Origin: an uncultured Gammaproteobacteria bacterium
Lineage (GTDB): Bacteria; Patescibacteriota; Patescibacteriia; UBA2591; UBA6264
Length of the DNA stretch: 64,000 nucleotides
Direction: 5' to 3'
Assembly (NCBI GenBank): GCA_964596735.1
Contig: CAZQVF010000001.1
Location: forward strand, 9,924 to 73,923
Shown: in pieces, positions 12,207-47,666 of the stretch
How positions within the stretch are numbered: position 1 is the first letter of the stretch
Layout: every line of letters begins with the position of its first letter
The notes under the pieces: model-generated
Database searches by the model: none
What the model was told of the DNA's origin: nothing
Seen by the model: the letters and a program-made list of their open reading frames with translations, nothing else
Position numbers and translations under genes: made by a program

Positions 12207-12209
12207 GAC

Positions 12210-12524: not shown

Positions 12525-12541
12525 ATTCATTTAATTAAATT

Positions 12542-14290: not shown

Positions 14291-14307
14291 ATTATTAAAT
14301 TATATTT

Positions 14308-15381: not shown

Positions 15382-15409
15382 GAATGCAAAATCTTGTCAT
15401 ATTTAAAAG

Positions 15410-30621: not shown

Positions 30622-33600
30622 ATGACAAAATCAAAAAGAATTTTAGCAAGTATAGTAGCGGTGACCACTGTTTTATGGTCAATAGGCCCAGCCGCCCTTG
30701 CCTTATCAGTTACTAATGTGGCTGTTTCTCCATCTTCAATTGAGATTACTTTTGACGACGCTGTTTTAAGTACGACCTTAACAGCCGCCGCAGAATTAGG
30801 AGATTCAACTAAAAGCGCGGGAGATTTGCGCAATTATCTTTTTAAGGTGGGTGATCCCTTAGTAACTAAAAATCTTAGTCGGGCGGCACCCTATAATATG
30901 ACCACTGAATATTTTGCTGCGGAGAATAAAATGCGTATTTACGGTATTGAAAATTTATACCTGGATTCTGGTGATGATTGGGATTTTAGTATCCCGGCTA
31001 CGACTATTCAGCACGCAACAACAACAGATTCTTATGTTGAAGCTTATCATGTCACAGGCGTGATTATAGGAGTACAAGATCCAGTTATAAACTATATTAA
31101 AAATGATCCAACCGCGGCTAGCCCAGTGCCGGCCTCAGGGGATTGTCTTGGTTATCCCTGCGGAGCAGTCGGTGATGGTTTAAAAATTTTTGGTTCTAAT
31201 TTTACCACTTCAACCGTGGCTTATATTGGAGGGGCAACAGCCACGATTAATGCTCAAACCGCTACTCAGCTTGATATTGAAATTCCTTCCGACTTTTCCA
31301 GCACAGGAGATGTTGATGTGCAGTTATATGATTCAAACACGGGCCGGTATTCAATATCCAGAGGTATTGTTGTTTATGATTCAGATGTCGGAGTAGTGGT
31401 TGGTTATTTAACTTTATCAGACGAAACCACTGGTGTTGATAATGCCGAAATAACAGTTGACCAACCTTCTTATTGGGGTTCTGGCGGCACAGCTTATACT
31501 CACGCCAATGGTTATTATGCCGTGTCTGTTACAACAGCTGGAACTTATGAGGCCAGATTTAATACTCCGCCTGGCATTTCAGAATCAGCTCCATCTAAGG
31601 TAAGCAATCTTTCAGTTACCTTGGGAGCGATTACCAGTGTTGGGGCCAAGGTTTGCGGTACTCCAACTATTTCAGGCTATGTTTGTGCTCCTGGCTCTTC
31701 TCCTTGTCAAGGAGTAGAAGGAGTTAATGTCAGTGTTTACACCTATGATTGGACTGTTGAACAGACAACCATGACCAATCCAGACGGTTCATGGAGTGTT
31801 TATATTGATAACACCGGCTCTTGGATTAATGTTGGTGTTGATACAAATCCAAGCTATTACCACACCAATGTTTTGGGCTATTTTTCAAGTTTAAGAGGCC
31901 TTTATGATCAAACCCTTAGTTCAGGGGCTACGGTTGCTGATTTGGAAGTTTATTTAACTCAATATAATGTGGGAGGAACAGTTAAAACTCCGGCGGGCGA
32001 CACTAGTGAGGCCAATCCAGTTCCTAATACAGTGGCGCCAAACGCTAATGTTCAATTACGCACAGAAGATTGGTCTTATGAACAATGGACAAATACTGAC
32101 GATAATGGCGTTTTCAAATTTGGCGGTGTGCCGGCTGGTTCAACTTATATTTTAGAGATTGAACCGCCATACTCTGGTAATTTTTCAGCCTATGCTCGGA
32201 CCAGAATTGAAGATTTAGTGGTTGGTTCTTCAGCTATTGGGTGGGATGCGGGAACTGAAATAACAGATCTTAATCAGGACGCTAAAGCAACAAGCGGAGC
32301 CTTAAGATTTGGTCAGCCAAATGTTTGGGGTAAGGTTATGGCTGGCGGTTCAGCCGTTGAAAATGCCTGGGTTGAACTTCATAATTGGGGAGGATGGTAT
32401 AGTACTAATACTGATGCTGATGGTAAGTTTAAATTTGATGCAGCTATAGGGACTTATGAATTAGAAGTTAATCCACCTAGTGATAGCAGTTATTCTCGAC
32501 GTAGATTTGAAAATATACAAATAACTTCAGCCACGTCTAATGATTTAGCTGCTCAGGCTGATGCCATTGACGAGGTTGATGATGACGCTTTTACTTTGGC
32601 GGCGCCAAATGTTTCCGGCTATGTTTACGGACCAACCGGCACCACTGGCCAGGCAAATGTTGGAATGGATCTTTGTCCATACAATTCCCCAGGGATGTGT
32701 TATTGGGCGATGACTAATAACGCTGGATTGTTTGGTCTTGGCGGAGTGCCTGACGGAACCTGGAGAGTTGAAATAAGACCAGATACCTGGAGTACAATTT
32801 ATGTTGCGCCAGTTTCCCAGATTTTAGTTATTTCCGGAGGTTCACCAACTACCTTAGACGGCACAGCAATTTCAGGAAATTTGATTTTTAGGTTGGTTGA
32901 TCCATCAGAAGGTGGTTTAAAAGGAAAGGTTTGCGCTCCAGGGGACACTAGTTCTTGTGAACATCCTCAGGCAAACGTGGGAGTTAATTTGCGGCCGCAA
33001 AACGCCATGGAAGGATTTAGATGGGGTCAGACTGATTCCAATGGTGAATTTGCTTTTGGGGCAGTGGTTGCTGGCGTTTATGATTTAGAGGTAGAACCAT
33101 GGGGGAGTAGTGCTTATTCTCGCCAGACATATACGGTTACGGTTAATAGTGATGATTCAGTGACAGTAGGAAGTACTGAATATTCTACCCGGAACATTGT
33201 TCTTTATTTAAGTAGTCCTAATATTGCTGGTTATTTATATACTCCAAGATTTGCTGCTGGTCATACCTCAACTTCTAATCCTACTCCTGATCAGCCAATT
33301 CAATGGGCTTGGGTGAATTTACATCAAGAGGGTCCAATGATGGGTCCGGGTGGTTGGTATGGCGCCAGTACTGATGAAAATGGTTATTTCAATTTTGGCG
33401 GTGTTCAACCAGGTTCAAACTATGTTTTAGAAGCAGAAGCCCAATGGGGCGGTGCTTATACTCGTAAAAGATATTCAAATATTATTTTTACAGATACAAA
33501 TAGCGACGGAGTGGCTGATGAATGTAGTGTTGGAATTACAGATGATGGCGATGCTGAAGATGGAAGCTGTGACTTAAGTACTCTATTGGGTACAGCCGTT

Positions 33601-36600
33601 GCTTCTGGTACTCCAGTCAGAGCCGTCAGAGTTGGTATACCTAATTTAAGGGGACAGATAGTTGATCCAGATAGTAATGGAGTAAGAGATTGCTGGGTAA
33701 TGGTTCATGATAATATGTGGATGAATCAGGCCGGGGGCAACACTGATCAAAGCGGATACTTTAACTTGGGTGGATTAGATGATGGTACTTATCAAATTGA
33801 AATAAACATGCCTTGGGGCGGTGATCAGGCCTATACGCAACCCAGTGGCTTAACAGTGGTTATTGCCAATGATATTGCTGTGGTTAAGCAAAATAATGTG
33901 GCTTTGACTAATAACAAGATAACATTAACCACGCCTCAAAAGATCTTAACCGGTTATGTTTATAAAGACACTAATGACAATGGGTCTTATGATATTGGGG
34001 TTGATACAGCAATGGAAAATGTTCGAGTTGAAGGTCATCGAAACATGGGCGGCGGATTTTTTGAGGTTAGAACTAATTCTAGTGGTGAATACACTTTAAA
34101 AATTAGTGGTGGTTCTTGGTGGATTCAGCCAATGCCTGATTGGGGCAATGTCAATGTTGATTGGGTTTATTCTGAACCACCAACCAGAGTTACTTTCCCG
34201 TCAACTACGACTGAAGAATGCAAAGGAACAACAACTCGTTGTACAGCCGCTTCGGCTACGGCTACGGTTATTGATGACGGTCTTGATTTTAAAGTAGATG
34301 TGGCTAATAGTATTTTAACTGGTTATGTTAAATTGCCAGACGGTACGGCCGTGGCCAATACTTGGGTTGATGCGCACAAAGGCATGGGCCCGGGCAATGG
34401 GGCTAATACTGACAGCAATGGCCGGTTTAGCATTAATGTTCCAGCCGGAACATATGAAATAATGGCCATGCCCAATACCCCTGATTATGGCAGTCCAGAT
34501 CCAATTAAAGTAAAAGTAGCCGATGGCCAAACAACAGATGCCGGCACTTTATATTTAAAATCCAGAAGTTCTCACATTAAAGGTTCAGTTACTGATTCAG
34601 CTGGTAATGCTATTGGTAATGTTATGCTTAATGCCTGGCAATTTAATTCTCCTGGCTGGGCAACTGCCTTTACTGATAGTACTACTGGAAGATATGACTT
34701 AACAGTTAGTGATGGAGTTTGGGGTATCATGGTAATGCCCATGAGCGGAAGTTATATTTATCAAGGGGCGCCTTTAAATGTAACTGTTGACGAAAATGAG
34801 ACCTCTGATGCTAATGATTTTGTATTAAAAAATGCAGACACTACTCTTAAGGTTAGTATAGTTAATTCTAGTGGAACTCGAATAACTGATCTTTGGGGAG
34901 GTGTTTGGGTTAAAGATACTTCGGTTGATGATATGATTGATTTTGGCGGGCCAATGGAAGACATGATGATGAAAGGAGACATGATAACTGATACAGGCGG
35001 AATGATAGAAGGAGGTATGGGTTCTGGCGGAGGAGGCGCCATGGGTCCGGGTATGGAACAGGGTGGCTTCCAGGGCGGCGGATTAGTCAATGGTTATACT
35101 GAGATTAAAATTCCTGGTGGCTCTGAGGCAAGCCCTGAACAATATGAGCTTGGTTTGCATACACCACCCGGAGCAACCTATACTTTAAGTGCTACTAAAA
35201 TAGTCGATGTTGTTAGTAGTGTTGATCAAGAAATTGAATTAGTGGTGACTTTAAATGATGTCACCCTTCAAGGCCATTTATATATTGATGCCAATTCTAG
35301 TGGAGGATATGATTCTGGAGAAGAGGCAACAGGTCTTAGAGCCTTTGTTAATGCTCATCGAGCCGAAGGTGGTTGGCAAATGACCGAGACCAACAACGAT
35401 GGTTCTTATAGTATTCTTGTCTCTGCCGGAGAATGGAGACTTGATGCCTGGATTGATGTGTTTATGACTTTTGGGGCAAGTAAATATATGATTGTTAATG
35501 AAGACGTTAAAGATATTGTTAGCGCCGGAGATACAATCACTCGTAATTTTGAAGTTAAAGAATTAGGCTCAAGTATTTCTGGAACAGTGACTGACCCGGA
35601 CGGAGTAGCCATGGATAATGTTTGGATTTTTGTTGATTATGGTACAGAAGAAATGATTTCTGACTTTAAAGGACCGGGCGGTCCTGGAGTAGGAACCTTT
35701 ACTGATATTAGTGGTGATTATACTTTAAATGTGGCGGCCGGAGCCTATAAGGTTGGGGCTGGTATTCCTCCATGGGATACAAGAAATTTAATCAGTCCTG
35801 ATTTGTTAACAGTTACTGTAGCTGATTCAGCTGCTTCTACAGGCAATGATTTACAATTTAAATCATCTGATGCCACAATTGCAGGAACAATTACTTATGA
35901 TGGGGAAAACAAAGCGGCCTTTGTTAGAGCCTGGTCAGATAGCGGTGGCGGCAATGGAACTATTTCCACTGACGGCACTTACAGCTTAAATGTCAGTTCA
36001 GATGATACCTGGCACATTAGCGCCGCAACAGAAATCAGCAATGTATTTTACGAAAGCGCTGAAGCCAGTGTTACTACTGTAGCGGGAACAAATACGCAAA
36101 ATCTAGTTTTAGCCCAAAGTACATTATCTATTCCAGAATCCAAGACAGCCTCATTTGATTCTTCTAATAGTAAAAGTATTATCTTAGGAGATGGTTTAAA
36201 GGTTGATGCACCAGCCGGCAGTATTCAAAGTTCAGGTACGGTGACACTAACGGTTACGCCTAAAACAGATGCTAAGCCAGATTCTAAAGATAAACCAGTT
36301 GGCATTAGTTATGATTTTGTGGCCAAAGATGCCGATGGACAAGCCGTAACCAGTTTTGCCAATGATGTTACGGTCACTATTCCCTATAATGAAGACGTTA
36401 TTACCGCGGCTGGTTATTCTGAGACAGATTTAAGTCCCAAATATTATGATGAAACAACTGGAACCTGGGAGAATTGGAAAGCGGTTGTTCAGGATACAGA
36501 CGCAAATACATTTACCATTACCACAAATCACTTTACGCCAGGCGGTTTGACTGGTGGCCGAGTTACAGCGGCGGCGGTTACTCCTTCTACTCCTAGTAGT

Positions 36601-37560
36601 GGTACGCCAGCCGGAGGGTCAACTGGCAGCATATTATTACCAGAGGGGCCAACCAATGTTTCAGTTTGGATAAATTGGGGAGCAGAAACAACAGTAAACA
36701 GAACCATTACCTTGTCTCTTGGGGCTGATAACGCCACAGAAATGTTAATTAGTAATTCAATTGATTTTGTCGGAGCTACCTGGGAAGAATATAAGACCAG
36801 TAAATACTGGACATTAGAAGCTGGTAATGGTGAGAAAAATGTTTATGTTAAATACCGCGATGAAGACTATAATGACTCTTCTATTGTTTCCGATACCATT
36901 GTTTTAGCAGAGGTGTTGGCTGCAGCCGGAGAAAGAGATTTGGTTAAGACAGCTGATAGTTCAGGAGTATATTTAATCTTAAATGGCAGACGTCATGTGT
37001 TCCCGCATTTAGCTGTTTATACTTCATGGGCTTATCCAGATGATTTCTCAACAGTAAAAACAATATCCAGCGCTGACTTTAATGCTTTTGAAGAAGGCGA
37101 TCCAGTGCCATTTAGAGACGGTTCAATGTTCAGAGGCACAGCCGCTTCCTTACATGGCAAAGCCGCTTCAGCTGTTTTCTATGTTGAAGATGGAAAACTT
37201 AGGCCGGTTAATTCAGGAGAGGTTTATCAGGAATTGTTTAATGATCCAGGCTGGGGTTTGGTTACTTGGGTGCCAGACGATCTTTTGTCCAAGTTTGAAT
37301 ATTCATTAGGGGAAAACCTTGTTTCAAGCGATATTCATCCTAATGGTGCTTTGGTTAAATACGCTGATTCAGCTGCGGTTTATTTGATTGAAAATGGACA
37401 AAAAAGACAATTTACTTCTTGGGATGCTGTGGTAGATAATGGTTATCAAAAGAAAAAGATTCATATTATTCCAGCATCAGAAACCTATGTTACAGCTGAT
37501 TCAATTGGCAGCCTAGCCGAGTCTTTAATCACGCCAGTGATTGCGGCTATGTATCGTTAG
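30622..37560 (+). CDS. Giant (2312 aa) secreted surface protein with at least 11 tandem carboxypeptidase-regulatory-like / Cna-B-type beta-sandwich repeats, a Met/Gly-rich segment and a C-terminal shared module
   Basis: Signal peptide MTKSKRILASIVAVTTVLWSIGPAALA. The repeats have the form [IL]-x-G-[YK]-V-x(5-20)-[AV]-x-V-x-[LA]-H-x(5-12)-T-[DN]-x-[DN]-G-x-[FY] (e.g. LTGYVYKDTNDNGSYDIG...NVRVEGH, GKVMAGGSAVENAWVELHNWGGWYSTNTDADGKFKF). The Met-rich linker is MEDMMMKGDMITDTGGMIEGGMGSGGGG. There is no internal stop over 6.9 kb. Confidence 0.8.
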   Translation: MTKSKRILASIVAVTTVLWSIGPAALALSVTNVAVSPSSIEITFDDAVLSTTLTAAAELGDSTKSAGDLRNYLFKVGDPLVTKNLSRAAPYNMTTEYFAAENKMRIYGIENLYLDSGDDWDFSIPATTIQHATTTDSYVEAYHVTGVIIGVQDPVINYIKNDPTAASPVPASGDCLGYPCGAVGDGLKIFGSNFTTSTVAYIGGATATINAQTATQLDIEIPSDFSSTGDVDVQLYDSNTGRYSISRGIVVYDSDVGVVVGYLTLSDETTGVDNAEITVDQPSYWGSGGTAYTHANGYYAVSVTTAGTYEARFNTPPGISESAPSKVSNLSVTLGAITSVGAKVCGTPTISGYVCAPGSSPCQGVEGVNVSVYTYDWTVEQTTMTNPDGSWSVYIDNTGSWINVGVDTNPSYYHTNVLGYFSSLRGLYDQTLSSGATVADLEVYLTQYNVGGTVKTPAGDTSEANPVPNTVAPNANVQLRTEDWSYEQWTNTDDNGVFKFGGVPAGSTYILEIEPPYSGNFSAYARTRIEDLVVGSSAIGWDAGTEITDLNQDAKATSGALRFGQPNVWGKVMAGGSAVENAWVELHNWGGWYSTNTDADGKFKFDAAIGTYELEVNPPSDSSYSRRRFENIQITSATSNDLAAQADAIDEVDDDAFTLAAPNVSGYVYGPTGTTGQANVGMDLCPYNSPGMCYWAMTNNAGLFGLGGVPDGTWRVEIRPDTWSTIYVAPVSQILVISGGSPTTLDGTAISGNLIFRLVDPSEGGLKGKVCAPGDTSSCEHPQANVGVNLRPQNAMEGFRWGQTDSNGEFAFGAVVAGVYDLEVEPWGSSAYSRQTYTVTVNSDDSVTVGSTEYSTRNIVLYLSSPNIAGYLYTPRFAAGHTSTSNPTPDQPIQWAWVNLHQEGPMMGPGGWYGASTDENGYFNFGGVQPGSNYVLEAEAQWGGAYTRKRYSNIIFTDTNSDGVADECSVGITDDGDAEDGSCDLSTLLGTAVASGTPVRAVRVGIPNLRGQIVDPDSNGVRDCWVMVHDNMWMNQAGGNTDQSGYFNLGGLDDGTYQIEINMPWGGDQAYTQPSGLTVVIANDIAVVKQNNVALTNNKITLTTPQKILTGYVYKDTNDNGSYDIGVDTAMENVRVEGHRNMGGGFFEVRTNSSGEYTLKISGGSWWIQPMPDWGNVNVDWVYSEPPTRVTFPSTTTEECKGTTTRCTAASATATVIDDGLDFKVDVANSILTGYVKLPDGTAVANTWVDAHKGMGPGNGANTDSNGRFSINVPAGTYEIMAMPNTPDYGSPDPIKVKVADGQTTDAGTLYLKSRSSHIKGSVTDSAGNAIGNVMLNAWQFNSPGWATAFTDSTTGRYDLTVSDGVWGIMVMPMSGSYIYQGAPLNVTVDENETSDANDFVLKNADTTLKVSIVNSSGTRITDLWGGVWVKDTSVDDMIDFGGPMEDMMMKGDMITDTGGMIEGGMGSGGGGAMGPGMEQGGFQGGGLVNGYTEIKIPGGSEASPEQYELGLHTPPGATYTLSATKIVDVVSSVDQEIELVVTLNDVTLQGHLYIDANSSGGYDSGEEATGLRAFVNAHRAEGGWQMTETNNDGSYSILVSAGEWRLDAWIDVFMTFGASKYMIVNEDVKDIVSAGDTITRNFEVKELGSSISGTVTDPDGVAMDNVWIFVDYGTEEMISDFKGPGGPGVGTFTDISGDYTLNVAAGAYKVGAGIPPWDTRNLISPDLLTVTVADSAASTGNDLQFKSSDATIAGTITYDGENKAAFVRAWSDSGGGNGTISTDGTYSLNVSSDDTWHISAATEISNVFYESAEASVTTVAGTNTQNLVLAQSTLSIPESKTASFDSSNSKSIILGDGLKVDAPAGSIQSSGTVTLTVTPKTDAKPDSKDKPVGISYDFVAKDADGQAVTSFANDVTVTIPYNEDVITAAGYSETDLSPKYYDETTGTWENWKAVVQDTDANTFTITTNHFTPGGLTGGRVTAAAVTPSTPSSGTPAGGSTGSILLPEGPTNVSVWINWGAETTVNRTITLSLGADNATEMLISNSIDFVGATWEEYKTSKYWTLEAGNGEKNVYVKYRDEDYNDSSIVSDTIVLAEVLAAAGERDLVKTADSSGVYLILNGRRHVFPHLAVYTSWAYPDDFSTVKTISSADFNAFEEGDPVPFRDGSMFRGTAASLHGKAASAVFYVEDGKLRPVNSGEVYQELFNDPGWGLVTWVPDDLLSKFEYSLGENLVSSDIHPNGALVKYADSAAVYLIENGQKRQFTSWDAVVDNGYQKKKIHIIPASETYVTADSIGSLAESLITPVIAAMYR

Positions 37561-37594
37561 ATTTATTCCCTTTAAGGGAAGGGATAAGATATAG

Positions 37595-37626
37595 AAAAGG
37601 GGCTATAAAAAGCCCCTTTTCTTTTT
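37595..37626 (+). terminator. Rho-independent terminator of the giant gene
   Basis: AAAAGGGGCT-ATAAAA-AGCCCCTTTTCTTTTT. Confidence 0.7.
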
Positions 37627-37688: not shown

Positions 37689-38225
37689 ATGTTTAAAATC
37701 ACGGAAAAAATTCTTTTTCATCAAATTAGAAATGGTGATGAGCAGGCCTTCACCATCTTTTATAATAGGTACAAGACTAAGATTTACCGCTTTATTTATT
37801 TTAAAGTTTCTAATGAAGAAAAAGCCGATGATTTGACAAATGATACTTTTATAAAAGTATTTCGTTATTTGCGGAATGGAGAAGAGATTGAGAATTTTCA
37901 AGCTTTTTTGTATAAAACAGCTCGTAATTTGGTAATTGATTTTTACCGGACCAGAAAACAAGAGGTTTCTTTAGAAGATGCCAAAGAAGTTGAGGCTGAT
38001 ATAGACGTAAGCAAAGAGGTTGATGATAAAATAAAAGTAGAAACCATTAATAAGTATTTATCTGGTTTAAGTCCAGAATATATTAAAGTTGTTAAGCTTC
38101 ATTTTTTTGATGAACTCTCATTCAAAGAAATAGCTGAGATTACAGGTGATTCAGAGGGGAGTGTTAGAATGAGGGCTCATCGGGGAATGGCCCAGCTTAA
38201 AAAACAGCTAAAAGAGCGTGATTAA
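37689..38225 (+). CDS. ECF-type RNA polymerase sigma factor (sigma-70 regions 2 and 4)
   Basis: Region 2 is FTIFYNRYKTKIYRFIY...DLTNDTFIKVFRYL. Region 4 HTH is LSFKEIAEITGDSEGSVRMRAHRGMAQLKKQL. Confidence 0.85.
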   Translation: MFKITEKILFHQIRNGDEQAFTIFYNRYKTKIYRFIYFKVSNEEKADDLTNDTFIKVFRYLRNGEEIENFQAFLYKTARNLVIDFYRTRKQEVSLEDAKEVEADIDVSKEVDDKIKVETINKYLSGLSPEYIKVVKLHFFDELSFKEIAEITGDSEGSVRMRAHRGMAQLKKQLKERD

Positions 38226-38249
38226 TTTATTTTTTTATCGTCTTAATTA

Positions 38250-39191
38250 GTGATGGAAGTAAGAGAATTAAGAAAACTTTATAAGTCTATCAGACAAGAC
38301 TCTGTTCGCGAGCAAGAGTCCCATGATATTGTTTTGAATTCCTTTAGAGAAATGCTTCCATCTAAAACAAAACTTACCTACAATTTTTATTTATCTTTAA
38401 GGCCAGTGGCGGTTAGCTTGCTGGCTTTTGTTTTTGTTTTTGTCGCTGGATTTGGCACAATTGCTGTTGCCAAGAATACCGTGCCCGGAGACATATTATA
38501 CCCAGTTAAAAGAATAGCAGAGAAAAGTCGCATAGTATTGGTATTTGATAAATCTAAAAAAGCAGTCTTACGGGCAGAGATTTTAACCAATCGTTTATCT
38601 GAAGTTAAAGTTTTAACAGAAAAGGCAAAGGGTGGAGATAAAGAGTCTGAGCTTGAACTTAATGTTTTAGCTCAAAATTTTACCAATGAATTAAAAGTTT
38701 TAACAAAGCAAATTGGGGATCAAGTTATTGAACCTCAAGCTTTTATTACTCCTTTCCCTGAAGAAGAATTACTATATATTGACGAACAAATGATAGGCCA
38801 GGGTTCTTTGCCTGTTCAGGATAAACGGCAGGTGTTTACGGTTATGCCCACAGAAGATTTAGAAAAGCTTTTATCTGAAACTCAAGAGCTTTTGGCTGAG
38901 GAAAATTTAGCCTTGGCTTTTGTGAAATTACAAGAAGCAGAAAAATTAGTTCAGGAACAAGAACCAGTTACTGAACCAGATGTTGTTGTAGAAGACTCAG
39001 AAGAAGTAGAAAATCAAGCAGAAGAAGAAACACAAGGAGTATTACCTGTTCAGCCAGTTGAACCTGTAATAGAGGATGATATATCAGGGTCAGTTGGACA
39101 AATTTTATTAAAACAAGAAAAGGAAATAGATTTTCAGGTTAAGATTGAAAAAGATTCACCAGCCCGAACAGGAATGACTCGAGAACAATAA
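38250..39191 (+). CDS. Putative membrane-anchored anti-sigma factor (single TM, extracytoplasmic coiled-coil/acidic domain)
   Basis: Immediately downstream of the ECF sigma gene. It has a short cytoplasmic N-terminus, a TM (VAVSLLAFVFVFVAGFGTIAVA) and a long extracytoplasmic region. The call is positional/architectural. Confidence 0.45.
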   Translation: MMEVRELRKLYKSIRQDSVREQESHDIVLNSFREMLPSKTKLTYNFYLSLRPVAVSLLAFVFVFVAGFGTIAVAKNTVPGDILYPVKRIAEKSRIVLVFDKSKKAVLRAEILTNRLSEVKVLTEKAKGGDKESELELNVLAQNFTNELKVLTKQIGDQVIEPQAFITPFPEEELLYIDEQMIGQGSLPVQDKRQVFTVMPTEDLEKLLSETQELLAEENLALAFVKLQEAEKLVQEQEPVTEPDVVVEDSEEVENQAEEETQGVLPVQPVEPVIEDDISGSVGQILLKQEKEIDFQVKIEKDSPARTGMTREQ

Positions 39192-39462: not shown

Positions 39463-42400
39463 ATGAACAAACTTAAGAAATTGATTGCTTTAGGAACTAC
39501 CGTTTCAATGCTCTTGAGCTTAGTAGCAGTTTTACCTGCCAGCGCTATAACAATTGCTGATGGCGATTTAGTTAAAACCGCTGACAGTTCAGCTGTTTAC
39601 TATATTCAAGGAGCAAACAAACGTGTATTCCCACATTATAACGTTTATCTTTCTTGGGGCTATGCGGCAGACTTTTCAACAGTAAAAACAGTTAGTTCTT
39701 CAGAATTAGCTGCTTATGCTGATGCAAATGCCATGCCTTTCCGTGATGGTGCGCTATTTCGCGGAACAGCTGCCAGTTTAGGTGACAAAGACGCAACTGC
39801 GGTTTTCTATGTTGAAAACGCAATATTGCGCCCAGTTTTGTCAGAACAGGTCTATCAGGCTTTGTTCAGTGACTTAAGCTGGTCAAAGGTTACTTGGGTA
39901 CCAGATGATCTGTTGGTTAAGTTCAACTATGACATGGGCTCAGACCTTAGTTCATCTGCAACTCATCCTGATGGCGTTATCTTCAAATATTCTGGTTTAG
40001 ACCAGAAATATGTTGTTGAAAGTGGTAAAAAGCGCGCTATTTCAGACGCCGCTTTTGCTGCTAATCGCTACAGAGAAGCAGACGTTCTAACCCTTGATGT
40101 TAGTGAAACCTATGCTGATGGTTCAAGTGTCACTGGCGTTGAATCAGGATTATTAACTCCTGGTTGGCTTGGTGTTGTTGCTGAAGCAGCTGCTTTAACA
40201 GCGAGTTTATATAACACTCCAGCTGGAGGCACTGTTCCAGGCAACGCTAGTAATGTTTCTCTTCTCAGATTTAAACTAACGGCTGGTTCTTCAGCCGCTG
40301 CTGTTGATGGCTTAACCTTTAAAAGAACAAGCTTTGGAGAAACTACTGACTGGGATGCCCTTTATGTTTATGAAGGGAATGATTGTCTTACTCCAACTGG
40401 TAGAAGTTTAAGTTCAGATGATCACACCGTGGAATTTACTGCTTTAGGTCTTTCAGTTCCAGCGAATAGTTCTAAAATAATTGAACTACGTGGTGACATG
40501 ACTACCGCCGACAGCAATAGCAGTGCCTTTCAGTTAATCGCAGTTGAAAGTGCGGCTACTGTTAGTGGATTACCACTCACTGGTAATGTTATGGTTGTTG
40601 CCGCGGTTGATGTAACCACCGCTGCTCTTACTGATGGAACAGCTCCAATTAACCCTGCTGTTGGTGCCCAGAATGTGGAAATCGCTGCCTTTAAAATTCA
40701 GGCTAATGGCAATAATGATCTTACCTTTAGTCAGGCAGTGTTTACCTTTACTGGAACCATGTCAAGAAGTGACATCACCAATATAAATCTTTATTTACTT
40801 GGTGAAACTACTTCTTTAGCTAGCGCCGCTAGTATTGATTCTAATGATACCTTTACTATGACGCTTGCTTCTCCTTATGTCATTACCAAAGGTCAGACCA
40901 AAAACTTCTTATTAAAAGCTGATTTAGCTGGTGAAGTTGGTCGAACCTTGAAAATGTATATTGAGGAAACCTATCACTTAGCCGTTAGCGACAACCAGTA
41001 TAACTATGGAGCCAATGTTACCAATGGCTTTGATACTGGCGATGCCGCTACCTTGACCCTAGAGGGTGGTGAGATTACCATGACCGATAATGGTCCTGTT
41101 GCTGACGAGATTTCTCAAAATCAGCAAGATGTAGTTTTAACAAAAATTGCTGTAACCTCTAGTAGAGCCGTTGAGGTTCGCAAATTCTATGTCACTCTTG
41201 CTAGTGATGTTGCCGGAGGAGCAAATGATGCAGATGATATTACTGACTTAAGAATCAAAGACGAAGACACTGGTCAAACATTAATGACTACCAGTGCAAT
41301 AGGAACAACTATTGCTGGTAATTATTTAATGACTGGTACGTTTAATTTAACCGAAGACGTTACCCGTAATTTAATTATTACAGTTGACATTGGCGTTGAT
41401 GCAGACGACAGTCTTAGTGGTAAATATGTTTCTGGTGACCTAAAAGTAGTCGACAGAAGTGATGATTCAGTTGCTACTGGCGCTGCTTCAGAAGAAGCAC
41501 AAATAAGAGACGTGTCTACCGGTGATTGGGTTCTTACCGCTGATATCATTCCAATTACTATTAGTGGTGAAAATCAAACTGTTCAAGCACCTGCTTTAAC
41601 CATGGCTGAAGCTTCAACTCCAGTTAGTGGTTTAACAGTTGTTAAGGGAGCAGATAAAGTTGATGGTATTGGTATTGTATTTACAGCTGGCGATGCTTCT
41701 GCTATTAATATTAGGCAGTTTGCCGCTCGCGTTTATGTAAATACAGCCGCTACCTTCTTGGCCGCTGGTGAAGACTCTTCACCACAAGGCGAAGTAACCA
41801 CTGCTTATCTTTATGATGACAGTACTTTATTGTCTTCAAAGACTATTTCTGCTACTAGTGCTACCCATGATTACGGAGCAGTTACTTTTGACGGCCTTGA
41901 CGTTGATGTTTCTGCCGGTAGTACTAAAAAGTTAGTAATTAAGTATGATGTTAGCGATAGTTTAGCGGCTACCAGGTATGTAGCAGTTGGTATTTTAGAC
42001 TCAACTGTTACTGCTTATGACAGTCAAGGTGATGCAGTTACTGTCACTGATGATAGCGTTAACTATTACACTGACGATACAAGTGTACCAGATCACTATA
42101 AAACCCTTAGCACAGCTGGTTCATTAACTATGGCCCAAGATTCAGCAACACCTGATGCAGCAATTGTTTTAGCTGGAACAAGTAATGTTGAATTCTCTAA
42201 GATTAAGTTTACGGCTACCAATGAAAGTTGGACCATTAATAAACTTAGAGTAAAGATCGGTACCACAGCTAATGAAAGCAGTGTTTCCTCTGTCAAAATT
42301 ACCTACGAAGATACTACTAAGACAGGTTATTTGGCAAGTGGTTATGTTAACTTTACTAACTTAAATTGGGTTATTGGACAAGACAGTGAAGAGATTTTAA

Positions 42401-43200
42401 CCATTTCTGGTGATTTATCTGCAATAGATTCCAACATTGCCACCACCGGGCGTGAAATCAAACTTGGTATTGATGAAGACGAGGGCTTTGAAGCCGTTGG
42501 CGAATCATCTTCCACCACTACTGATTTAGCACTTGGTGATGTTGATGCCTGGGGCAATATTATGTATCTACGAAAGAGCATGCCAGCTCTAACCTCAGCT
42601 ACTGCCGACACAGCTTTAATTGCTAAATCAAATGCCATCATCCACTCCTTTACAGCGACCGCTTATTCAGCTGGTCCAATTACTGTAAAGAAGTTTAAGT
42701 GGGATGTTAATGTTGGTGATATTGACGGCGGAGGTGAATTAAAAGTGGATACCTGGAAGATCTACAAAAGCGGTAGCAGTACTGCTCTTGGTGGTCTTTG
42801 GTCTAATGGGACAACTACCAGTACAACCGGTGTTACTCCTCAACTTACAAATGGTTCTGGATACATACTTGTTGAACTTGATAGTGAAGTTGAAGTTGGC
42901 GCTGGAGAATCCAAGACCTTTACCTTGAAAGCAAGAGTTCAGGGTGTGGAAGAAAATGACAGTCTTGGTATTACCTTAGATTCTGATGGAGATACGACTA
43001 ATTTAACTGGTGGTTTAGCTAACCATGACACTGAAGGAGCTCGGCTTGATGATGGGACAACTGAATCAGCTGCTGAATTCCTATGGTCTGATAAGGCTCG
43101 TGGTGTGAATCACGCTGCAACAATGCAGAGCACTTATCTTGACTGGTCAAATGGTTACTTACTCAGTACCTTCCCACTTTCTAACACCCTGTCACAGTAA
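39463..43200 (+). CDS. Large (1245 aa) secreted Thr/Ser/Ala-rich surface protein with the N-terminal shared module
   Basis: Signal peptide MNKLKKLIALGTTVSMLLSLVAVLPASA. Residues about 30-200 are homologous to the C-terminus of the giant protein (DLVKTADSSAVYYIQGANKRVFPH...FRGTAASLGDKDATAVFYVEN...VTWVPDDLLVKF). The rest is beta-rich low-complexity Ig-like repeats. Confidence 0.75.
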   Translation: MNKLKKLIALGTTVSMLLSLVAVLPASAITIADGDLVKTADSSAVYYIQGANKRVFPHYNVYLSWGYAADFSTVKTVSSSELAAYADANAMPFRDGALFRGTAASLGDKDATAVFYVENAILRPVLSEQVYQALFSDLSWSKVTWVPDDLLVKFNYDMGSDLSSSATHPDGVIFKYSGLDQKYVVESGKKRAISDAAFAANRYREADVLTLDVSETYADGSSVTGVESGLLTPGWLGVVAEAAALTASLYNTPAGGTVPGNASNVSLLRFKLTAGSSAAAVDGLTFKRTSFGETTDWDALYVYEGNDCLTPTGRSLSSDDHTVEFTALGLSVPANSSKIIELRGDMTTADSNSSAFQLIAVESAATVSGLPLTGNVMVVAAVDVTTAALTDGTAPINPAVGAQNVEIAAFKIQANGNNDLTFSQAVFTFTGTMSRSDITNINLYLLGETTSLASAASIDSNDTFTMTLASPYVITKGQTKNFLLKADLAGEVGRTLKMYIEETYHLAVSDNQYNYGANVTNGFDTGDAATLTLEGGEITMTDNGPVADEISQNQQDVVLTKIAVTSSRAVEVRKFYVTLASDVAGGANDADDITDLRIKDEDTGQTLMTTSAIGTTIAGNYLMTGTFNLTEDVTRNLIITVDIGVDADDSLSGKYVSGDLKVVDRSDDSVATGAASEEAQIRDVSTGDWVLTADIIPITISGENQTVQAPALTMAEASTPVSGLTVVKGADKVDGIGIVFTAGDASAINIRQFAARVYVNTAATFLAAGEDSSPQGEVTTAYLYDDSTLLSSKTISATSATHDYGAVTFDGLDVDVSAGSTKKLVIKYDVSDSLAATRYVAVGILDSTVTAYDSQGDAVTVTDDSVNYYTDDTSVPDHYKTLSTAGSLTMAQDSATPDAAIVLAGTSNVEFSKIKFTATNESWTINKLRVKIGTTANESSVSSVKITYEDTTKTGYLASGYVNFTNLNWVIGQDSEEILTISGDLSAIDSNIATTGREIKLGIDEDEGFEAVGESSSTTTDLALGDVDAWGNIMYLRKSMPALTSATADTALIAKSNAIIHSFTATAYSAGPITVKKFKWDVNVGDIDGGGELKVDTWKIYKSGSSTALGGLWSNGTTTSTTGVTPQLTNGSGYILVELDSEVEVGAGESKTFTLKARVQGVEENDSLGITLDSDGDTTNLTGGLANHDTEGARLDDGTTESAAEFLWSDKARGVNHAATMQSTYLDWSNGYLLSTFPLSNTLSQ

Positions 43201-43244: not shown

Positions 43245-43282
43245 ACAGGGGGCGGCAATAAAAGCCGCCGCCCTGTTTTTAT
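43245..43282 (+). terminator. Strong rho-independent terminator
   Basis: ACAGGGGGCGGC-AATAAAA-GCCGCCGCCCTGTTTTTATC. Confidence 0.75.
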
Positions 43283-43333
43283 CTAAAAAAAAGACATCTT
43301 GACAAAACGCCCATTTTGTGCTAAAATATTGAT

Positions 43334-44746
43334 ATGAAAATAAACAAAGCAATAACAATTCTGATTATTAGCTTTTTTGTTATCCCCTTGTTCCCCAGGG
43401 TAGCTTTGGCATTGGCTGCACCAATTGAACAGGATTATAAATGTTATACTTTTCGTTCCTCAGGCTCATGTGATAGGGATTACAGCACGGTTGATTATGA
43501 AGATAATAAGATTTTTTTAAGAGAACAAGAAACTGGTGTTTGCTGGACTAGAGAGATTCGTTTTCGAGAGTATATTTATTCTTTAATTCCTAGCGGTGTA
43601 TATTCTACACCAAATGGAACTCAAGTGAGGCCTTCTGTTAGCTTTGAAGATGAAATTCAAGTACATTCATTAAATTGGAATGTTAAATATAAGCCGGAAG
43701 GGCTGTATAAAAAGTTGCGTTTAAAGATATTTTTAATGACTGATAATCCAGATGTTTCACCTAATGTTGAAGAGATTTGCTTAAACCTTGAATTACAAGA
43801 TCGTTCTGAAAGAGGACTTAAAAAAAGAGACGATACTAGAGTTTCTGAATTAGAAAAAACGAAAAGAGTTTTAAGTAATTATTATAATGATTTCAGCAAT
43901 TACCCTGTCGTTAATGCCAATGTAAGTGACAAAGACAGACAATGGGCGTTATTTGAAAATATTTTAGAATCAGCTTCACTTAGCCGCCGGGAAAACTATA
44001 CCCGGGGCTTGGTTGATCAGCCTCAGGGAGTTGATGACGAGTATAAATATGGGTATTTAGCCAACAACTCAGGGGCATATTATTTACTCTGGACTAAATT
44101 AGAAAATGTTAATTCAGAGCATTTCCAAGATTCTTGGCAGGGACAAATATTAGACGTGGATTGCACCCCACCTACTTATTGTATTTATTCAAAATCTGAT
44201 TATGTGGCCGAACCTCTTTTGCAATATTTTGATCGAGAAAAAAGAACAAGCCAAATTGAACAGGCTGAATTTATTAAAACAGATAATAATCCTCAAGTAT
44301 GGCTTAAGTTAAATGATTATCGTTTTTGGTTAAGAACCCCTGATGTTTTTACTCGAGCCGGTGGTGATTGGGATAATATTTCTTTAGCTTCGAGCTTGGG
44401 AGACGTTCCTTTATTGAAACTTGTTAAAAAACAAGATGAGCCAGAGGTCTATCTTGTTACTGCCTCAGGGTTTAAAAGACATATGCCTAACAGTCAAATT
44501 CTTCATTATTACGGACAGGCCGAAGAGGTTGTTAGTTTTGAAGATACAAAAGTAATTGATCTTTTGCCTGAAAATTATTTAATTAGAGGCAGGGGACAAA
44601 CCAAAGTCTATTTTCTTGATCAAAAGATAAAGAGATGGATTACCTCACCAGAGGTATTAGAAAAACTAGGTTTTGACTGGTTAGACGTGGTGGTGGTAGA
44701 GCCTGAAGAAGTTGATTATTATGCTGAAGGAGCACCGATTTTTTAA
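43334..44746 (+). CDS. Secreted hypothetical protein (470 aa) with C-terminal repeats of the shared module motif
   Basis: A signal peptide/TM (ILIISFFVIPLFPRVALALA). The C-terminus carries two repeats: KLVKKQDEPEVYLVTASGFKRHMPNSQ and IRGRGQTKVYFLDQKIKRWITSPEV. Confidence 0.6.
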   Translation: MKINKAITILIISFFVIPLFPRVALALAAPIEQDYKCYTFRSSGSCDRDYSTVDYEDNKIFLREQETGVCWTREIRFREYIYSLIPSGVYSTPNGTQVRPSVSFEDEIQVHSLNWNVKYKPEGLYKKLRLKIFLMTDNPDVSPNVEEICLNLELQDRSERGLKKRDDTRVSELEKTKRVLSNYYNDFSNYPVVNANVSDKDRQWALFENILESASLSRRENYTRGLVDQPQGVDDEYKYGYLANNSGAYYLLWTKLENVNSEHFQDSWQGQILDVDCTPPTYCIYSKSDYVAEPLLQYFDREKRTSQIEQAEFIKTDNNPQVWLKLNDYRFWLRTPDVFTRAGGDWDNISLASSLGDVPLLKLVKKQDEPEVYLVTASGFKRHMPNSQILHYYGQAEEVVSFEDTKVIDLLPENYLIRGRGQTKVYFLDQKIKRWITSPEVLEKLGFDWLDVVVVEPEEVDYYAEGAPIF

Positions 44747-46536: not shown

Positions 46537-46773
46537 TCAGTCAACTCTTGTTCCGTCAGGACGGATGTTAAAAGATTCCCCATTTTTTTTCACCGGCGCT
46601 AAACCATTATGAAAATCTTCTACCCAGTCAAATCTTTGCTCATAGGCTGGTTCGCCGTCTTCTTGACGAACATGGAAATATTTACCATTTATTCCCACTG
46701 AGATTAAACCCTCATAAGCATTTCCTACAATAGGGTAACGCTGAAACAATTCATAAAGACTAATCGGGCTCAT
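46537..46773 (-). CDS. Small KWG/WG-repeat-like hypothetical protein
   Basis: A 78-aa protein. YEGLISVGINGKYFHVRQEDGEPAYEQRFDWVEDFHNGLAPVKKNGESFNIRPDG resembles two KWG beta-repeats. Confidence 0.4.
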   Translation of the reverse strand: MSPISLYELFQRYPIVGNAYEGLISVGINGKYFHVRQEDGEPAYEQRFDWVEDFHNGLAPVKKNGESFNIRPDGTRVD

Positions 46774-46903
46774 GGTTTACCCCCTTTCTATGTTGTGTAT
46801 GTAAATATCAACTATTTATAGAATAACAAATATGAACATTTTGTCAATTATGAAAAAGAATACCCGCGAGGGTATTAAATTAATAGAAGTATTTAAAGAA
46901 AAA

Positions 46904-47170
46904 TTAAGAATATAAATTACTATGACTATCTACGACAACGAAAATACATTCTTCTTCACTAATAAATTTATAAATAGCCCTTAAATCTCCTGTTATGTTA
47001 ATACTCCGATAGTCAGTATATCTTCCTTTTAAGGAATGGTTATTAAGCTGAGCGTTAAACGGGTTTTTTAAAAATAATTCTAATCTTTCCCGCACTTTTT
47101 TTTGTTCTCTCTTTTTTAGTTTTTTATACTGTTTCTCAAAATTTTTGTGAAAACGAATATTCATAAGCAA
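46904..47170 (-). CDS. relE: Type II toxin, RelE/ParE (YoeB/Txe-like) family
   Basis: An 88-aa protein. YKKLKKREQKKVRERLELFLKNPF ... LKGRYTDYRSINITGDLRAIYKF ... VVVDSHSNLY matches the RelE-fold toxin pattern. Its start is a TTG at 47170 or an ATG at 47164, and the gene lies downstream of the antitoxin gene. Confidence 0.7.
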   Translation of the reverse strand: MLMNIRFHKNFEKQYKKLKKREQKKVRERLELFLKNPFNAQLNNHSLKGRYTDYRSINITGDLRAIYKFISEEECIFVVVDSHSNLYS

Positions 47171-47237
47171 AGCTTGAAATTTCTTCAGGACTCACAAATG
47201 TAAAAGTAAATTTTTCCATTTGATTCGCCCATTGAAA

Positions 47238-47513
47238 CTATAAAGAGGTAAAATGTTTCTTAATCTCTTTGTTAGAAGAAAAAATGCGGGAAATATTTCT
47301 ATTCCTCTGAATATCAAACTCTATTTTACCTAAAAGACTTTCCAGTTCCGGAGACATTTTAGGAGTAATAGTAAAATATACTTCTTTATTTCTGACAAAC
47401 TGCTTTAAGTAAGCATTAATTATTGCGCTTAAAGAAAAGCCCATTTCCTTGGCAAGTTTCTGGGCATGAATTTTCACATTTTTCTCGGTTTTAATATTGA
47501 TTACTGTTTTCAT
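47238..47513 (-). CDS. Type II antitoxin, DinJ/RelB family (ribbon-helix-helix)
   Basis: MKTVINIKTEKNVKIHAQKLAKEMGFSLSAIINAYLKQFVRNKEVYFTIT is a DinJ-like N-terminal RHH. The start is taken as the ATG at 47513; the ORF track extends to a TTG at 47549. It lies 60-70 nt upstream of relE. Confidence 0.65.
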   Translation of the reverse strand: MKTVINIKTEKNVKIHAQKLAKEMGFSLSAIINAYLKQFVRNKEVYFTITPKMSPELESLLGKIEFDIQRNRNISRIFSSNKEIKKHFTSL

Positions 47514-47666
47514 ACATCTAAAGTATATACAATGGTTAGTAGATGTCAAGAGGGAATTGTGGAAAACTTTAATAGGCTTCGTTGGTTTAATTTTAAATGG
47601 TACCCAAGCATTTCAAAACGATGTATTGAAAGGTATTTTTGCAATAACAAAAATAATTTACCATTT

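What the first reader, a model, noticed from the sequence alone, without database searches (positions are those of the whole stretch)
36936..37450. Shared roughly 170-aa module (two ~40-aa [LV]VK..D...VY.I.NG.KR.F.S repeats) at the C-terminus of the giant protein, the N-terminus of the 1245-aa protein and the C-terminus of the 470-aa protein
DLVKTADSSGVYLILNGRRHVFPH...FRGTAASLHGKAASAVFYVEDGKLRPV...VTWVPDDLLSKFEY...ALVKYADSAAVYLIENGQKRQFTS in the giant protein aligns residue-by-residue with DLVKTADSSAVYYIQGANKRVFPH...FRGTAASLGDKDATAVFYVENAILRPV...VTWVPDDLLVKFNY...VIFKYSGLDQKYVVESGKKRAISD in the second protein (39561-40060). The third protein (about 44412-44690) has two further repeats of the same motif. 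Modules shared across three adjacent secreted proteins suggest a common anchoring or oligomerisation domain, for example cell-wall or S-layer binding. I could not place it in a known family.
Basis: seen in the sequence. Interest (0 to 1): 0.6.

Follow-up and report, generated by a model that had tools for sequence, protein, structure and literature searches.

The report
Shared wall-anchor-like repeat module
Three neighbouring secreted proteins of an uncultured Patescibacteria (CPR) bacterium carry the same ~200-residue module of three small repeats, which belongs to a large family absent from Pfam, is distantly related to the repeats of the mycobacterial secretion protein EccB, and most likely holds proteins on the cell wall.

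Summary
The giant protein's C-terminus (nt 36937-37536) and the 1245-aa protein's N-terminus (nt 39565-40161) are 51% identical over 200 aa (E 2e-70).

The module is three ~55-75-aa units, not two. The middle unit is diverged and carries an insertion. The 470-aa protein ends in three units, not two (unit-profile E 3e-27).

The module hits no Pfam, NCBIfam or PDB sequence. An exhaustive profile search still found 4410 protein clusters.

A confident AlphaFold model (pLDDT 92) shows 3 x beta-beta-beta-alpha-beta-alpha. Its top 11 PDB matches are all type VII secretion EccB proteins, whose repeats resemble the phage wall-binding protein PlyCB.

In relatives, the unit is fused in tandem to peptidoglycan hydrolase domains (Amidase_2, SpoIID, CHAP, M23, glucosaminidase). 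In one relative a unit is replaced by an SH3_3 domain.

Close relatives are all from Patescibacteria MAGs. The gene order giant protein, ECF sigma, DUF5667, 1245-aa protein is conserved among them.

Best reading: a non-covalent cell-wall (peptidoglycan or wall-polymer) anchoring module of CPR surface proteins. The function is inferred, not shown. It is a new variant of a known kind, of moderate interest.

The parts
30622..37560 (+). Gene for the 2312-aa giant secreted protein. It has an N-terminal signal-like segment, many CarboxypepD_reg/SdrD_B/TIG-type beta-sandwich domains, and the module at the C-terminus.
   Evidence: ORF list and translation. Pfam: CarboxypepD_reg 1.5e-53 in 9 stretches, SdrD_B 6.4e-22.
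36937..37113 (+). Giant protein, unit 1 (aa 2106-2164, DLVKTADSSGVYLILNGRRHVFPH...VPF).
   Evidence: Unit HMM i-E 8.6e-9. AF2 model shows beta-beta-beta-alpha-beta-alpha, pLDDT 95-97.
37114..37338 (+). Giant protein, unit 2 (aa 2165-2239). It is diverged, with an insertion (GTAASLHGKAASA) before the VFYVEDGKLRPV hairpin.
   Evidence: Unit HMM i-E 1.8e-3. Canonical in distant homologues. Same secondary-structure order in the model.
37339..37536 (+). Giant protein, unit 3 plus the closing L-x-T-P segment (aa 2240-2305).
   Evidence: Unit HMM i-E 1e-17. Unit 1 vs unit 3 self-similarity z = 9.
37593..37622 (+). Terminator-like hairpin after the giant gene (12-bp stem followed by a T run).
   Evidence: This is a consensus match only.
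37689..38225 (+). ECF-type sigma factor gene lying between the module-bearing genes (conserved context).
   Evidence: Pfam Sigma70_r2, r4_2 and ECF. Same position in Patescibacteria loci L005-L012, L017, L021, L023.
38250..39191 (+). DUF5667 membrane protein. Anti-sigma-like topology is inferred from one TM segment at about aa 50-75. Conserved context.
   Evidence: Pfam DUF5667 5.5e-13. Conserved directly upstream of the 1245-aa protein's orthologues.
39463..43200 (+). Gene for the 1245-aa secreted protein. It is acidic (pI 4.3), Thr/Ala/Ser-rich and has one Cys. The signal peptide ends ...LPASA, and the module follows after six residues (ITIADG; module from D35).
   Evidence: There are 71 N-terminal-module representatives among the top 148, median length 1185 aa.
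39565..40161 (+). Three-unit module of the 1245-aa protein (aa 35-233). Unit 1 is 39565-39741, unit 2 is 39742-39966, unit 3 is 39967-40161.
   Evidence: BLASTP against the giant module 51% identity, E 2e-70. Unit HMM i-E 1.4e-13, 0.07 and 7.5e-11.
43251..43269 (+). Terminator-like GC hairpin after the 1245-aa gene. The best promoter-like site of the region (43299-43327, 11 of 12 matches plus TG) follows it, just before the 470-aa gene.
   Evidence: These are consensus matches only.
43334..44746 (+). Gene for the 470-aa secreted protein. The N-terminal ~310 aa have no family match. The C-terminus carries three units.
44273..44737 (+). Three units of the 470-aa protein: aa 314-350 (nt 44273-44383), aa 362-397 (nt 44417-44524) and aa 410-468 (nt 44561-44737).
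   Evidence: Unit HMM whole-protein E 3e-27, per-unit i-E 3.4e-4, 2e-5 and 6e-16. The last unit matches phrog_9616 at E 8.3e-10.

Best explanation

Proposed mechanism: each protein is exported by Sec using its N-terminal signal peptide. The three-unit module then binds non-covalently and multivalently to the cell-wall layer, either peptidoglycan or a polymer attached to it. This keeps the rest of the protein on the surface of the Patescibacteria cell.

The same unit is used across CPR bacteria as a general address tag. It carries structural proteins (the giant beta-sandwich protein and the acidic ~1200-aa family, which could be an S-layer-like coat protein) and secreted enzymes (amidase, SpoIID, CHAP, M23, glucosaminidase, nuclease, subtilase).

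Shown: the shared module, its three-unit anatomy, the size of the family, the predicted fold, the EccB match, the fusion partners, and the conserved gene order.

Inferred: secretion, wall binding, the ligand, and the coat-protein role of the 1245-aa protein.
For: 1. Real homology between the modules: 51% identity over 200 aa, E 2e-70. The third protein scores E 3e-27 against a unit profile built only from database proteins.
2. Large family: 4410 representative clusters at E<=1e-3 and 1293 at E<=1e-10. In the top 148, there are 71 N-terminal modules, 19 C-terminal modules and 50 proteins with tandem units.
4. Sequence bridge: P0137, which has a CHAP domain plus five units, scores 61.4 bits on Pfam EccB PF05108 (cut-off 27). 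The best-matching unit lies on profile positions 183-247, which by residue number correspond to EccB repeat R2. P0023 scores 39.3 bits.
5. Fusion partners: of 50 multi-domain relatives, 8 carry SpoIID, 6 Amidase_2, 2 M23, 2 glucosaminidase, 2 PG_binding_1, 1 CHAP and 1 LGFP. P0083 has Amidase_2, then 8 units, then SpoIID. P0165 is named as an amidase from Candidatus Pacebacteria.
6. Domain swap: in P0009 the third unit is replaced by an SH3_3 domain. SH3_3 is a bacterial SH3 type that is a common wall-binding domain (established knowledge).
7. Secreted context: signal-like N-termini in all three window proteins, and in 57 of 69 N-terminal-module relatives.
8. Lineage and synteny: all 20 genome loci are Patescibacteria/Parcubacteria-type MAGs with the conserved order giant, ECF sigma, DUF5667, 1245-aa protein.
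Against: - No binding experiment exists for this family, and none exists for EccB repeats. Wagner et al. state there are no data for peptidoglycan binding.
- The Foldseek match is local. TM is about 0.23 and rmsd about 23 A over the whole module. The LysIME-EF1 match is weak (E 0.32).
- The window proteins themselves do not reach any Pfam EccB score. A reverse profile search of PDB sequences did not recover EccB.
- The units are also fused to non-wall enzymes (nuclease, subtilase, CAP). That fits general surface anchoring but does not identify the ligand.
- The modules are acidic overall (pI 4.7-4.9), unlike many basic wall-binding domains.
Confidence: 0.6

Rival explanations
1. Protein-protein docking or oligomerisation module. 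The three proteins, and other unit-bearing proteins, assemble with each other or dock onto an S-layer or other protein scaffold through the units, rather than binding wall carbohydrate.
For: - The solved structures containing the closest fold are protein assemblies. EccB periplasmic domains pack through their repeats in the ESX-5 complex (7nps and 7np7, the top hits).
- The LysIME-EF1 wall-binding domain and PlyCB form tetrameric and octameric rings.
- The module is shared by three adjacent genes.
- pTM 0.86 indicates the units pack tightly against each other.
Against: - Tandem units are fused to many unrelated enzymes, especially peptidoglycan hydrolases. In those enzymes, a substrate-targeting domain is the usual partner.
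- A unit is replaced by SH3_3 in P0009.
- Unit number varies from 2 to more than 10. That is typical of multivalent polymer binding rather than a fixed docking interface.
Confidence: 0.2
2. Host-directed adhesin or lysin-targeting module. Cultivated Patescibacteria grow as epibionts on other microbes. The units could bind the host cell's wall, tethering the symbiont through giant surface proteins and directing its hydrolases to host peptidoglycan.
For: - Close relatives come only from Patescibacteria MAGs.
- The epibiotic lifestyle of cultivated members is stated in the abstracts listed (PMC10633639, PMC12206443).
- In the giant protein the module lies at the end opposite the N-terminal signal or anchor segment.
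- Fusion to lytic enzymes.
- The window also carries a type IV pilus cluster.
Against: - In the ~1200-aa family the module comes right after the signal peptide. This is the arrangement of self-wall anchors such as the N-terminal SLH triplets of S-layer proteins (established knowledge).
- SpoIID and amidase pairs are normally used to remodel a cell's own wall.
- Nothing here distinguishes own wall from host wall.
Confidence: 0.15
3. Chance or compositional similarity, or a recent local duplication with no functional meaning.
For: By BLASTP alone, the 470-aa protein's similarity is not significant (E 0.08).
Against: - E 2e-70 between the two large proteins.
- E 3e-27 for the third protein against an independent unit profile.
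- Thousands of homologues.
- A confident fold prediction.
- Orthologous modules and gene order in 20 other genomes.
Confidence: 0.01

Closest known systems
Repeat domains R1-R4 of EccB, the type VII (ESX) secretion core component (Pfam PF05108; PDB 4kk7, 5cyu, 3x3m, 6sgy, 7nps)
   Same: - Units of about 55 aa with a four-stranded sheet and two helices.
- A similar sequence pattern: a hydrophobic strand, a G-x-K/R-R/H turn, a P/S position, then a helix.
- Top 11 Foldseek hits.
- Pfam's EccB model scores unit-bearing relatives above its cut-off (P0137 61 bits, P0023 39 bits).
- Extracytoplasmic location.
   Different: - EccB is a single-pass membrane protein with a central core domain flanked by four repeats, and it sits in a T7SS locus. 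Here there is no transmembrane-plus-core architecture and no T7SS genes.
- The window modules do not reach the Pfam model.
- Here the units are tandem and serve as appendages of many different proteins.
- The lineage is Patescibacteria rather than Actinobacteria or Firmicutes.
PlyCB (PDB 4F87) and the LysIME-EF1 C-terminal wall-binding domain (PDB 6ist) of phage endolysins
   Same: - A small domain with a four-stranded sheet plus helices that targets a lysin to the wall.
- It acts multivalently, as an octamer or tetramer ring in the phage proteins and as three covalently linked units here.
- 6ist_C is the first non-EccB PDB hit.
   Different: - The match is weak (E 0.32, 67 columns, rmsd 5.1 A).
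- There is no sequence similarity.
- The phage domains oligomerise from separate chains, whereas here the units are tandem in one chain.
SLH-domain triplets (PF00395) and CWB2 triplets (PF04122) of Gram-positive S-layer and wall proteins
   Same: Works alike: three tandem repeats (~55 aa for SLH; longer for CWB2) at the N- or C-terminus of secreted surface proteins and wall enzymes, giving non-covalent wall attachment (established knowledge). The acidic, Cys-poor ~1200-aa protein with an N-terminal triplet resembles an S-layer protein layout.
   Different: There is no sequence match to either Pfam model. The fold differs: beta-rich here, helical for SLH and Rossmann/Toprim-like for CWB2 (recalled, not tested). 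The ligand is unknown.
PHROG family phrog_9616 (function unknown)
   Same: The 118-position profile equals two units. It matches the last unit of the 470-aa protein (E 8.3e-10) and multi-unit relatives (P0023 2.8e-86, P0097 1.8e-39, P0083 8.8e-32).
   Different: It is an unannotated phage protein cluster. The giant and 1245-aa modules do not reach it.

Membership tests
EccB-type repeat (T7SS EccB, Pfam PF05108; PlyCB-like fold) | [quoted passage not shown] | tested here: met
   The AF2 model (pLDDT 92.1) gives beta-beta-beta-alpha-beta-alpha three times. The EccB1 repeat description comes from PMC4769845.
EccB-type repeat (T7SS EccB, Pfam PF05108; PlyCB-like fold) | Structural similarity to solved EccB structures | tested here: met
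EccB-type repeat (T7SS EccB, Pfam PF05108; PlyCB-like fold) | Sequence score above the Pfam PF05108 gathering threshold | tested here: not met
   No PF05108 hit for the three window proteins at E<=1. Only relatives reach it through summed repeats (P0137 61.4 bits, P0023 39.3 bits). A reverse profile search against PDB sequences found no EccB.
EccB protein (T7SS core component) | N-terminal TM helix, central core domain flanked by four repeats, and a T7SS locus (EccC, EccD, WXG100) | tested here: not met
   Architectures here are signal peptide plus module plus beta-sandwich domains. Neighbours are an ECF sigma, DUF5667, a PDZ protein and MetK. No T7SS families appear among the ORFs scanned.
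SLH, CWB2, LysM, SH3b, PG_binding_1, choline-binding and GW repeats (known wall-binding domains in Pfam) | Match to the family's Pfam model | tested here: not met
   No such hit for the modules or for 48 single units at E<=1. NCBIfam gave only noise.
phrog_9616 (phage protein family of unknown function) | HMM match to the PHROG profile | tested here: met
   Met for the 470-aa protein's last unit (E 8.3e-10). Not met for the giant and 1245-aa modules, which gave no hit at E<=0.01.
Functional class: non-covalent cell-wall-binding repeat module | Carried by exported proteins, as tandem repeats at a terminus | tested here: met
   Signal-like N-termini are read from the sequences. 57 of 69 N-terminal-module relatives have a hydrophobic N-terminus. 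No dedicated signal-peptide predictor was available.
Functional class: non-covalent cell-wall-binding repeat module | Fused to peptidoglycan hydrolase catalytic domains in relatives | tested here: met
   SpoIID 8, Amidase_2 6, M23 2, glucosaminidase 2 and CHAP 1 of 50 relatives.
Functional class: non-covalent cell-wall-binding repeat module | Demonstrated binding to peptidoglycan or a secondary wall polymer | not testable with these tools
   This needs sacculus pull-down or ligand-binding experiments. None was found in the literature searches.

The most novel reading that the evidence does not exclude
This could be the principal cell-surface address tag of Patescibacteria. It would play for CPR bacteria the role that SLH, LysM and CWB2 play elsewhere, while being evolutionarily tied to the EccB repeats of type VII secretion.

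The conserved cassette of ECF sigma, DUF5667 anti-sigma-like protein and the ~1200-aa protein with an N-terminal triplet would encode a regulated S-layer-like coat protein.

The same tag may recognise the host cell's wall. It would then link giant adhesins and secreted lysins to the epibiotic lifestyle. It would also give the first functional handle on what EccB repeats bind.
Probability: 0.3. Interest if true: 0.65.

Novelty: new variant of a known kind. Interest (0 to 1): 0.5.

Why it matters
- Patescibacteria make up a large share of uncultured bacteria, and their envelope biology is almost unknown.
- A widely used surface-targeting repeat that Pfam does not cover would allow large numbers of "hypothetical" CPR proteins to be annotated as cell-surface proteins. 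The exhaustive search found 4410 clusters at 50% identity.
- It would point to candidate coat proteins and host-contact proteins.
- It would provide a portable tag for surface display or lysin engineering.
- The remote link to EccB repeats suggests an experimentally tractable way to ask what those repeats bind in type VII secretion systems. Wagner et al. (PMC4769845) state that this is untested.

Tried and rejected
Searches that found nothing or failed:
- Pfam, NCBIfam and PDB-sequence searches with the modules and with single units gave nothing meaningful.
- A PDB-sequence search with a profile of the EccB-like subset of units (A5) returned only spurious antibody heavy-chain hits (the AVYYCAR motif) and no EccB.
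- phmmer of P0023 against PDB found nothing.
- The word-indexed protein search with the 58-aa unit profile found only 3 proteins and was uninformative.
It worked with A1.
- The first AF2 run, with 11 sequences, was only moderate (pLDDT 66). It was superseded by the 35-sequence run.

Ideas considered and rejected:
- The C-terminal ...LITPVIAAMYR of the giant protein is not a sortase-type sorting signal. The same L-x-T-P segment closes the module internally in the 1245-aa protein (GLLTPGW, aa 230-236), and the tail is too short.
- Low-complexity or chance similarity is rejected.
- Membership in the EccB protein family proper is rejected because the architecture and locus do not fit.

Caveat on counts: profile positions 1-39 of A1 cover an upstream domain, not the module. 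Three of the top 148 hits (P0092, P0095, P0108) are hits to that domain only, so the count of 4410 is slightly inflated.
Full report
**1. What is in the sequence**

The region holds five co-oriented genes:
- a 2312-aa protein (30622-37560);
- an ECF sigma factor (37689-38225);
- a DUF5667 membrane protein (38250-39191);
- a 1245-aa protein (39463-43200);
- a 470-aa protein (43334-44746).

All three large proteins begin with signal-peptide-like segments. This is read directly from the translations; no dedicated predictor was available.

The giant protein's aa 2106-2305 (nt 36937-37536) align colinearly with aa 35-233 of the 1245-aa protein (nt 39565-40161). Identity is 51%, with one gap, and BLASTP E is 2e-70. 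Chance or composition cannot explain this.

**2. Anatomy of the module**

Self-comparison confirmed that the first and last units are related (z = 9). It only hinted at a middle copy (z = 2-3.6).

I built a unit HMM from 90 single units taken only from database proteins. Its consensus is LGTKVKYPDGTLIKSSGSPTVYLIENGKKRPFPSAELFEALGYKWSDIITVSSSELNLYPTGAP. It finds three units in each protein:

| Protein | Unit 1 i-E | Unit 2 i-E | Unit 3 i-E |
|---|---|---|---|
| Giant | 8.6e-9 | 1.8e-3 | 1e-17 |
| 1245-aa | 1.4e-13 | 0.07 | 7.5e-11 |
| 470-aa | 3.4e-4 | 2e-5 | 6e-16 |

The whole 470-aa protein scores E 3e-27. BLASTP alone (E 0.08) and hhalign against the shallow alignment A1 (E 0.0057) had left that protein doubtful.

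The middle unit of the two large proteins carries an insertion. In more distant homologues it is canonical, for example FRDGSLVRSLTNPAVYYIESQTRKPIRSAEVFLGLGFKW. No other ORF of the window has the unit.

**3. Family size and annotation status**

- The modules and 48 single units match nothing in Pfam (2025 copy) or NCBIfam at E<=1 beyond noise. They match no PDB sequence.
- An exhaustive profile search of 1.84 billion representatives found 4410 clusters at E<=1e-3 and 1293 at E<=1e-10.
- Three of the top 148 hits are to an upstream domain included in the profile, not to the module.
- Among the top 148:
  - 71 have the three-unit module right after a hydrophobic N-terminus (median length 1185 aa, the 1245-aa protein's family);
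  - 19 have it at the C-terminus of large proteins;
  - 50 carry several module or unit matches in tandem, up to 9 separate stretches.
- PHROGs holds the repeat as phrog_9616, function unknown.

**4. Fold**

With 35 aligned homologues, AlphaFold2 gave a confident model: pLDDT 92.1, pTM 0.86. It shows beta-beta-beta-alpha-beta-alpha three times. A first run with 11 sequences had reached only pLDDT 66.

Foldseek against the PDB returned EccB1, EccB3 and EccB5 of mycobacterial type VII secretion systems as all of the top 11 hits. E values ran from 3.4e-5 to 4.7e-3, with probability up to 0.99. TM-scores are low (about 0.23) and rmsd is about 23 A. The resemblance is therefore unit by unit, not in the overall arrangement.

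The next PDB hit is the wall-binding domain of endolysin LysIME-EF1 (E 0.32). It is also a four-stranded sheet capped by helices, and it works as a tetrameric ring (PMC7098653).

In the viral structure library the best matches are uncharacterised actinophage proteins:
- Rhodococcus phage Weasels2, E 1.9e-6;
- Streptomyces phage LukeCage, 63 columns, rmsd 1.9 A.

Weak hits to lysins follow.

A sequence-level bridge exists. Pfam's EccB model scores P0137 (CHAP plus five units) at 61.4 bits and P0023 at 39.3 bits, against a cut-off of 27. The best-matching stretch lies on profile positions 183-247, which by residue number correspond to EccB repeat R2. The window proteins themselves do not reach that model. 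Reverse profile searches did not recover EccB.

**5. Evidence on function**

In relatives, the unit occupies the place that wall-binding domains occupy in peptidoglycan hydrolases:
- P0083 and P0100 have Amidase_2, then tandem units (8 in P0083, 6 matched stretches in P0100), then SpoIID.
- P0097 and P0114 have units followed by SpoIID.
- P0074 and P0102 have glucosaminidase followed by units.
- P0137 has CHAP followed by units.

Of 50 multi-domain relatives, 8 carry SpoIID, 6 Amidase_2, 2 M23, 2 glucosaminidase, 2 PG_binding_1, 1 CHAP and 1 LGFP. Other partners are subtilase, CAP, nuclease and Ig-like domains. That fits a general surface tag.

No SLH, CWB or sortase-anchor family appears among the 25 families shown for these relatives.

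In P0009 the third unit is replaced by an SH3_3 domain. From established knowledge, this is a usual bacterial wall-binding domain.

The C-terminal ...LITPVIAAMYR of the giant protein is not a sorting signal. The same L-x-T-P segment closes the module internally in the 1245-aa protein.

**6. Lineage and context**

- The window is identical over the p470 region (genes from the giant protein to polynucleotide phosphorylase) to a JGI metagenome contig, sample 3300009329, 83.8 kb.
- The closest named homologue is from a "Patescibacteria group bacterium".
- All 20 genome loci with the module are Patescibacteria or Parcubacteria MAGs. Some TPA assemblies are titled "uncultured Gammaproteobacteria" but share the same gene order.
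- The order PDZ protein, giant protein (C-terminal module), ECF sigma, DUF5667, ~1200-aa protein (N-terminal module) recurs in L005-L012. The sigma, DUF5667, ~1200-aa protein part recurs in L014-L023.
- Multi-unit enzymes carry names from Candidatus Pacebacteria and Moraniibacteriota.
- The 1245-aa protein has pI 4.3, one Cys and is rich in Thr, Ala and Ser. This composition is typical of coat proteins, which is weak evidence only.
- Terminator-like hairpins follow the giant gene and the 1245-aa gene. The best promoter-like site precedes the 470-aa gene. These are consensus matches only, and they suggest separate transcription units.

**7. Interpretation**

Most likely (about 0.6), the module is a non-covalent, multivalent cell-wall anchor. 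It would retain Sec-exported structural proteins and enzymes on the Patescibacteria surface. It works like SLH or CWB2 triplets, or like phage lysin wall-binding domains, but it is built from EccB/PlyCB-type units.

Rivals:
- a protein-protein docking or oligomerisation module (0.2). The closest solved structures are protein assemblies.
- a host-wall-directed adhesin or lysin-targeting module (0.15). Cultivated Patescibacteria are epibionts, as stated in the abstracts.

Chance similarity is excluded. Binding, ligand and localisation are inferred and need experiments.

**8. Comparison with known systems, and novelty**

It is not an EccB protein. It lacks the transmembrane-plus-core architecture and there is no T7SS locus. 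It is not a member of any Pfam wall-binding family.

It is best described as a new variant of a known kind. It is a large family of EccB/PlyCB-like repeats that Pfam does not cover, used as a modular surface tag in CPR bacteria.

The literature searches found no paper connecting EccB-like repeats with Patescibacteria surface proteins. The library is incomplete, so prior description elsewhere cannot be excluded.

Interest is moderate (0.5). The finding is useful for annotating CPR envelopes and possibly for understanding EccB. The general principle, tandem wall-binding repeats on surface proteins, is well known.

Noticed in passing
window 36649-36906 (giant protein aa 2010-2095): A separate ~85-aa domain lies directly upstream of the module (…NATEMLISNS..F.GA.WEEY...W.L..G.GEK.VYVKYRDEDYN.S..VSD.I.L). 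It is conserved in the giant protein's orthologues. Part of it recurs 4-20 times in other huge proteins (P0092 1912 aa, P0095 2553 aa, P0108 4698 aa). It has no Pfam match here.
   Followed up: partly
window 37689-39191; loci L005-L023: An ECF sigma factor and a DUF5667 single-pass membrane protein (possible anti-sigma factor) sit just upstream of the ~1200-aa module protein in many Patescibacteria MAGs. This suggests envelope-stress control of this surface protein.
   Followed up: partly
window 34927-35082 (giant protein aa 1436-1487): A Gly/Met/Asp-rich low-complexity stretch (DDMIDFGGPMEDMMMKGDMITDTGGMIEGGMGSGGGGAMGPGMEQGGFQGGG) interrupts the run of beta-sandwich domains. A short antisense ORF (34761-35090) overlaps it.
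   Followed up: no
P0009 (339 aa, JGI metagenome), alignment A1 columns ~325-390: A relative in which the third unit of the module is replaced by an SH3_3 domain (PF08239). This is a natural domain swap with a bacterial SH3-type domain.
   Followed up: partly
window 9642-16621: A type IV pilus gene cluster, as commonly found in CPR genomes: PilM-like, a T2SSE ATPase with an MshEN domain, a second T2SSE ATPase, and a T2SSF platform protein.
   Followed up: no
window ~46537-47549, minus strand: A small toxin-antitoxin-like pair (YafQ/ParE-type toxin ~46904-47164 and DUF6364 ~47238-47513) and a 78-aa ORF with a weak WG_beta_rep match (~46537-46773). Coordinates were mapped from the gene calls of the identical JGI contig.
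   Followed up: no
loci L006, L008, L009, L012, L019, L020, L022: MAG records titled 'uncultured Gammaproteobacteria bacterium' (TPA assemblies) carry the same module. Several of them (L006, L009, L012, L020, L022) also show the Patescibacteria-type gene order around it. The organism titles are probably placeholders or mislabels.
   Followed up: no
window 82-1995: A 637-aa ORF near the window start with two Laminin_G_3 (concanavalin-like lectin) domains. This is another probable surface or secreted protein.
   Followed up: no
P0137 (677 aa, JGI, named 'surface antigen'): A Pro/Ala/Gly/Arg-rich protein with a CHAP domain plus five units. Its composition looks high-GC, suggesting a lineage other than the AT-rich Patescibacteria of the window. 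Its units are the ones Pfam's EccB model recognises best, so it may be an evolutionary bridge.
   Followed up: partly
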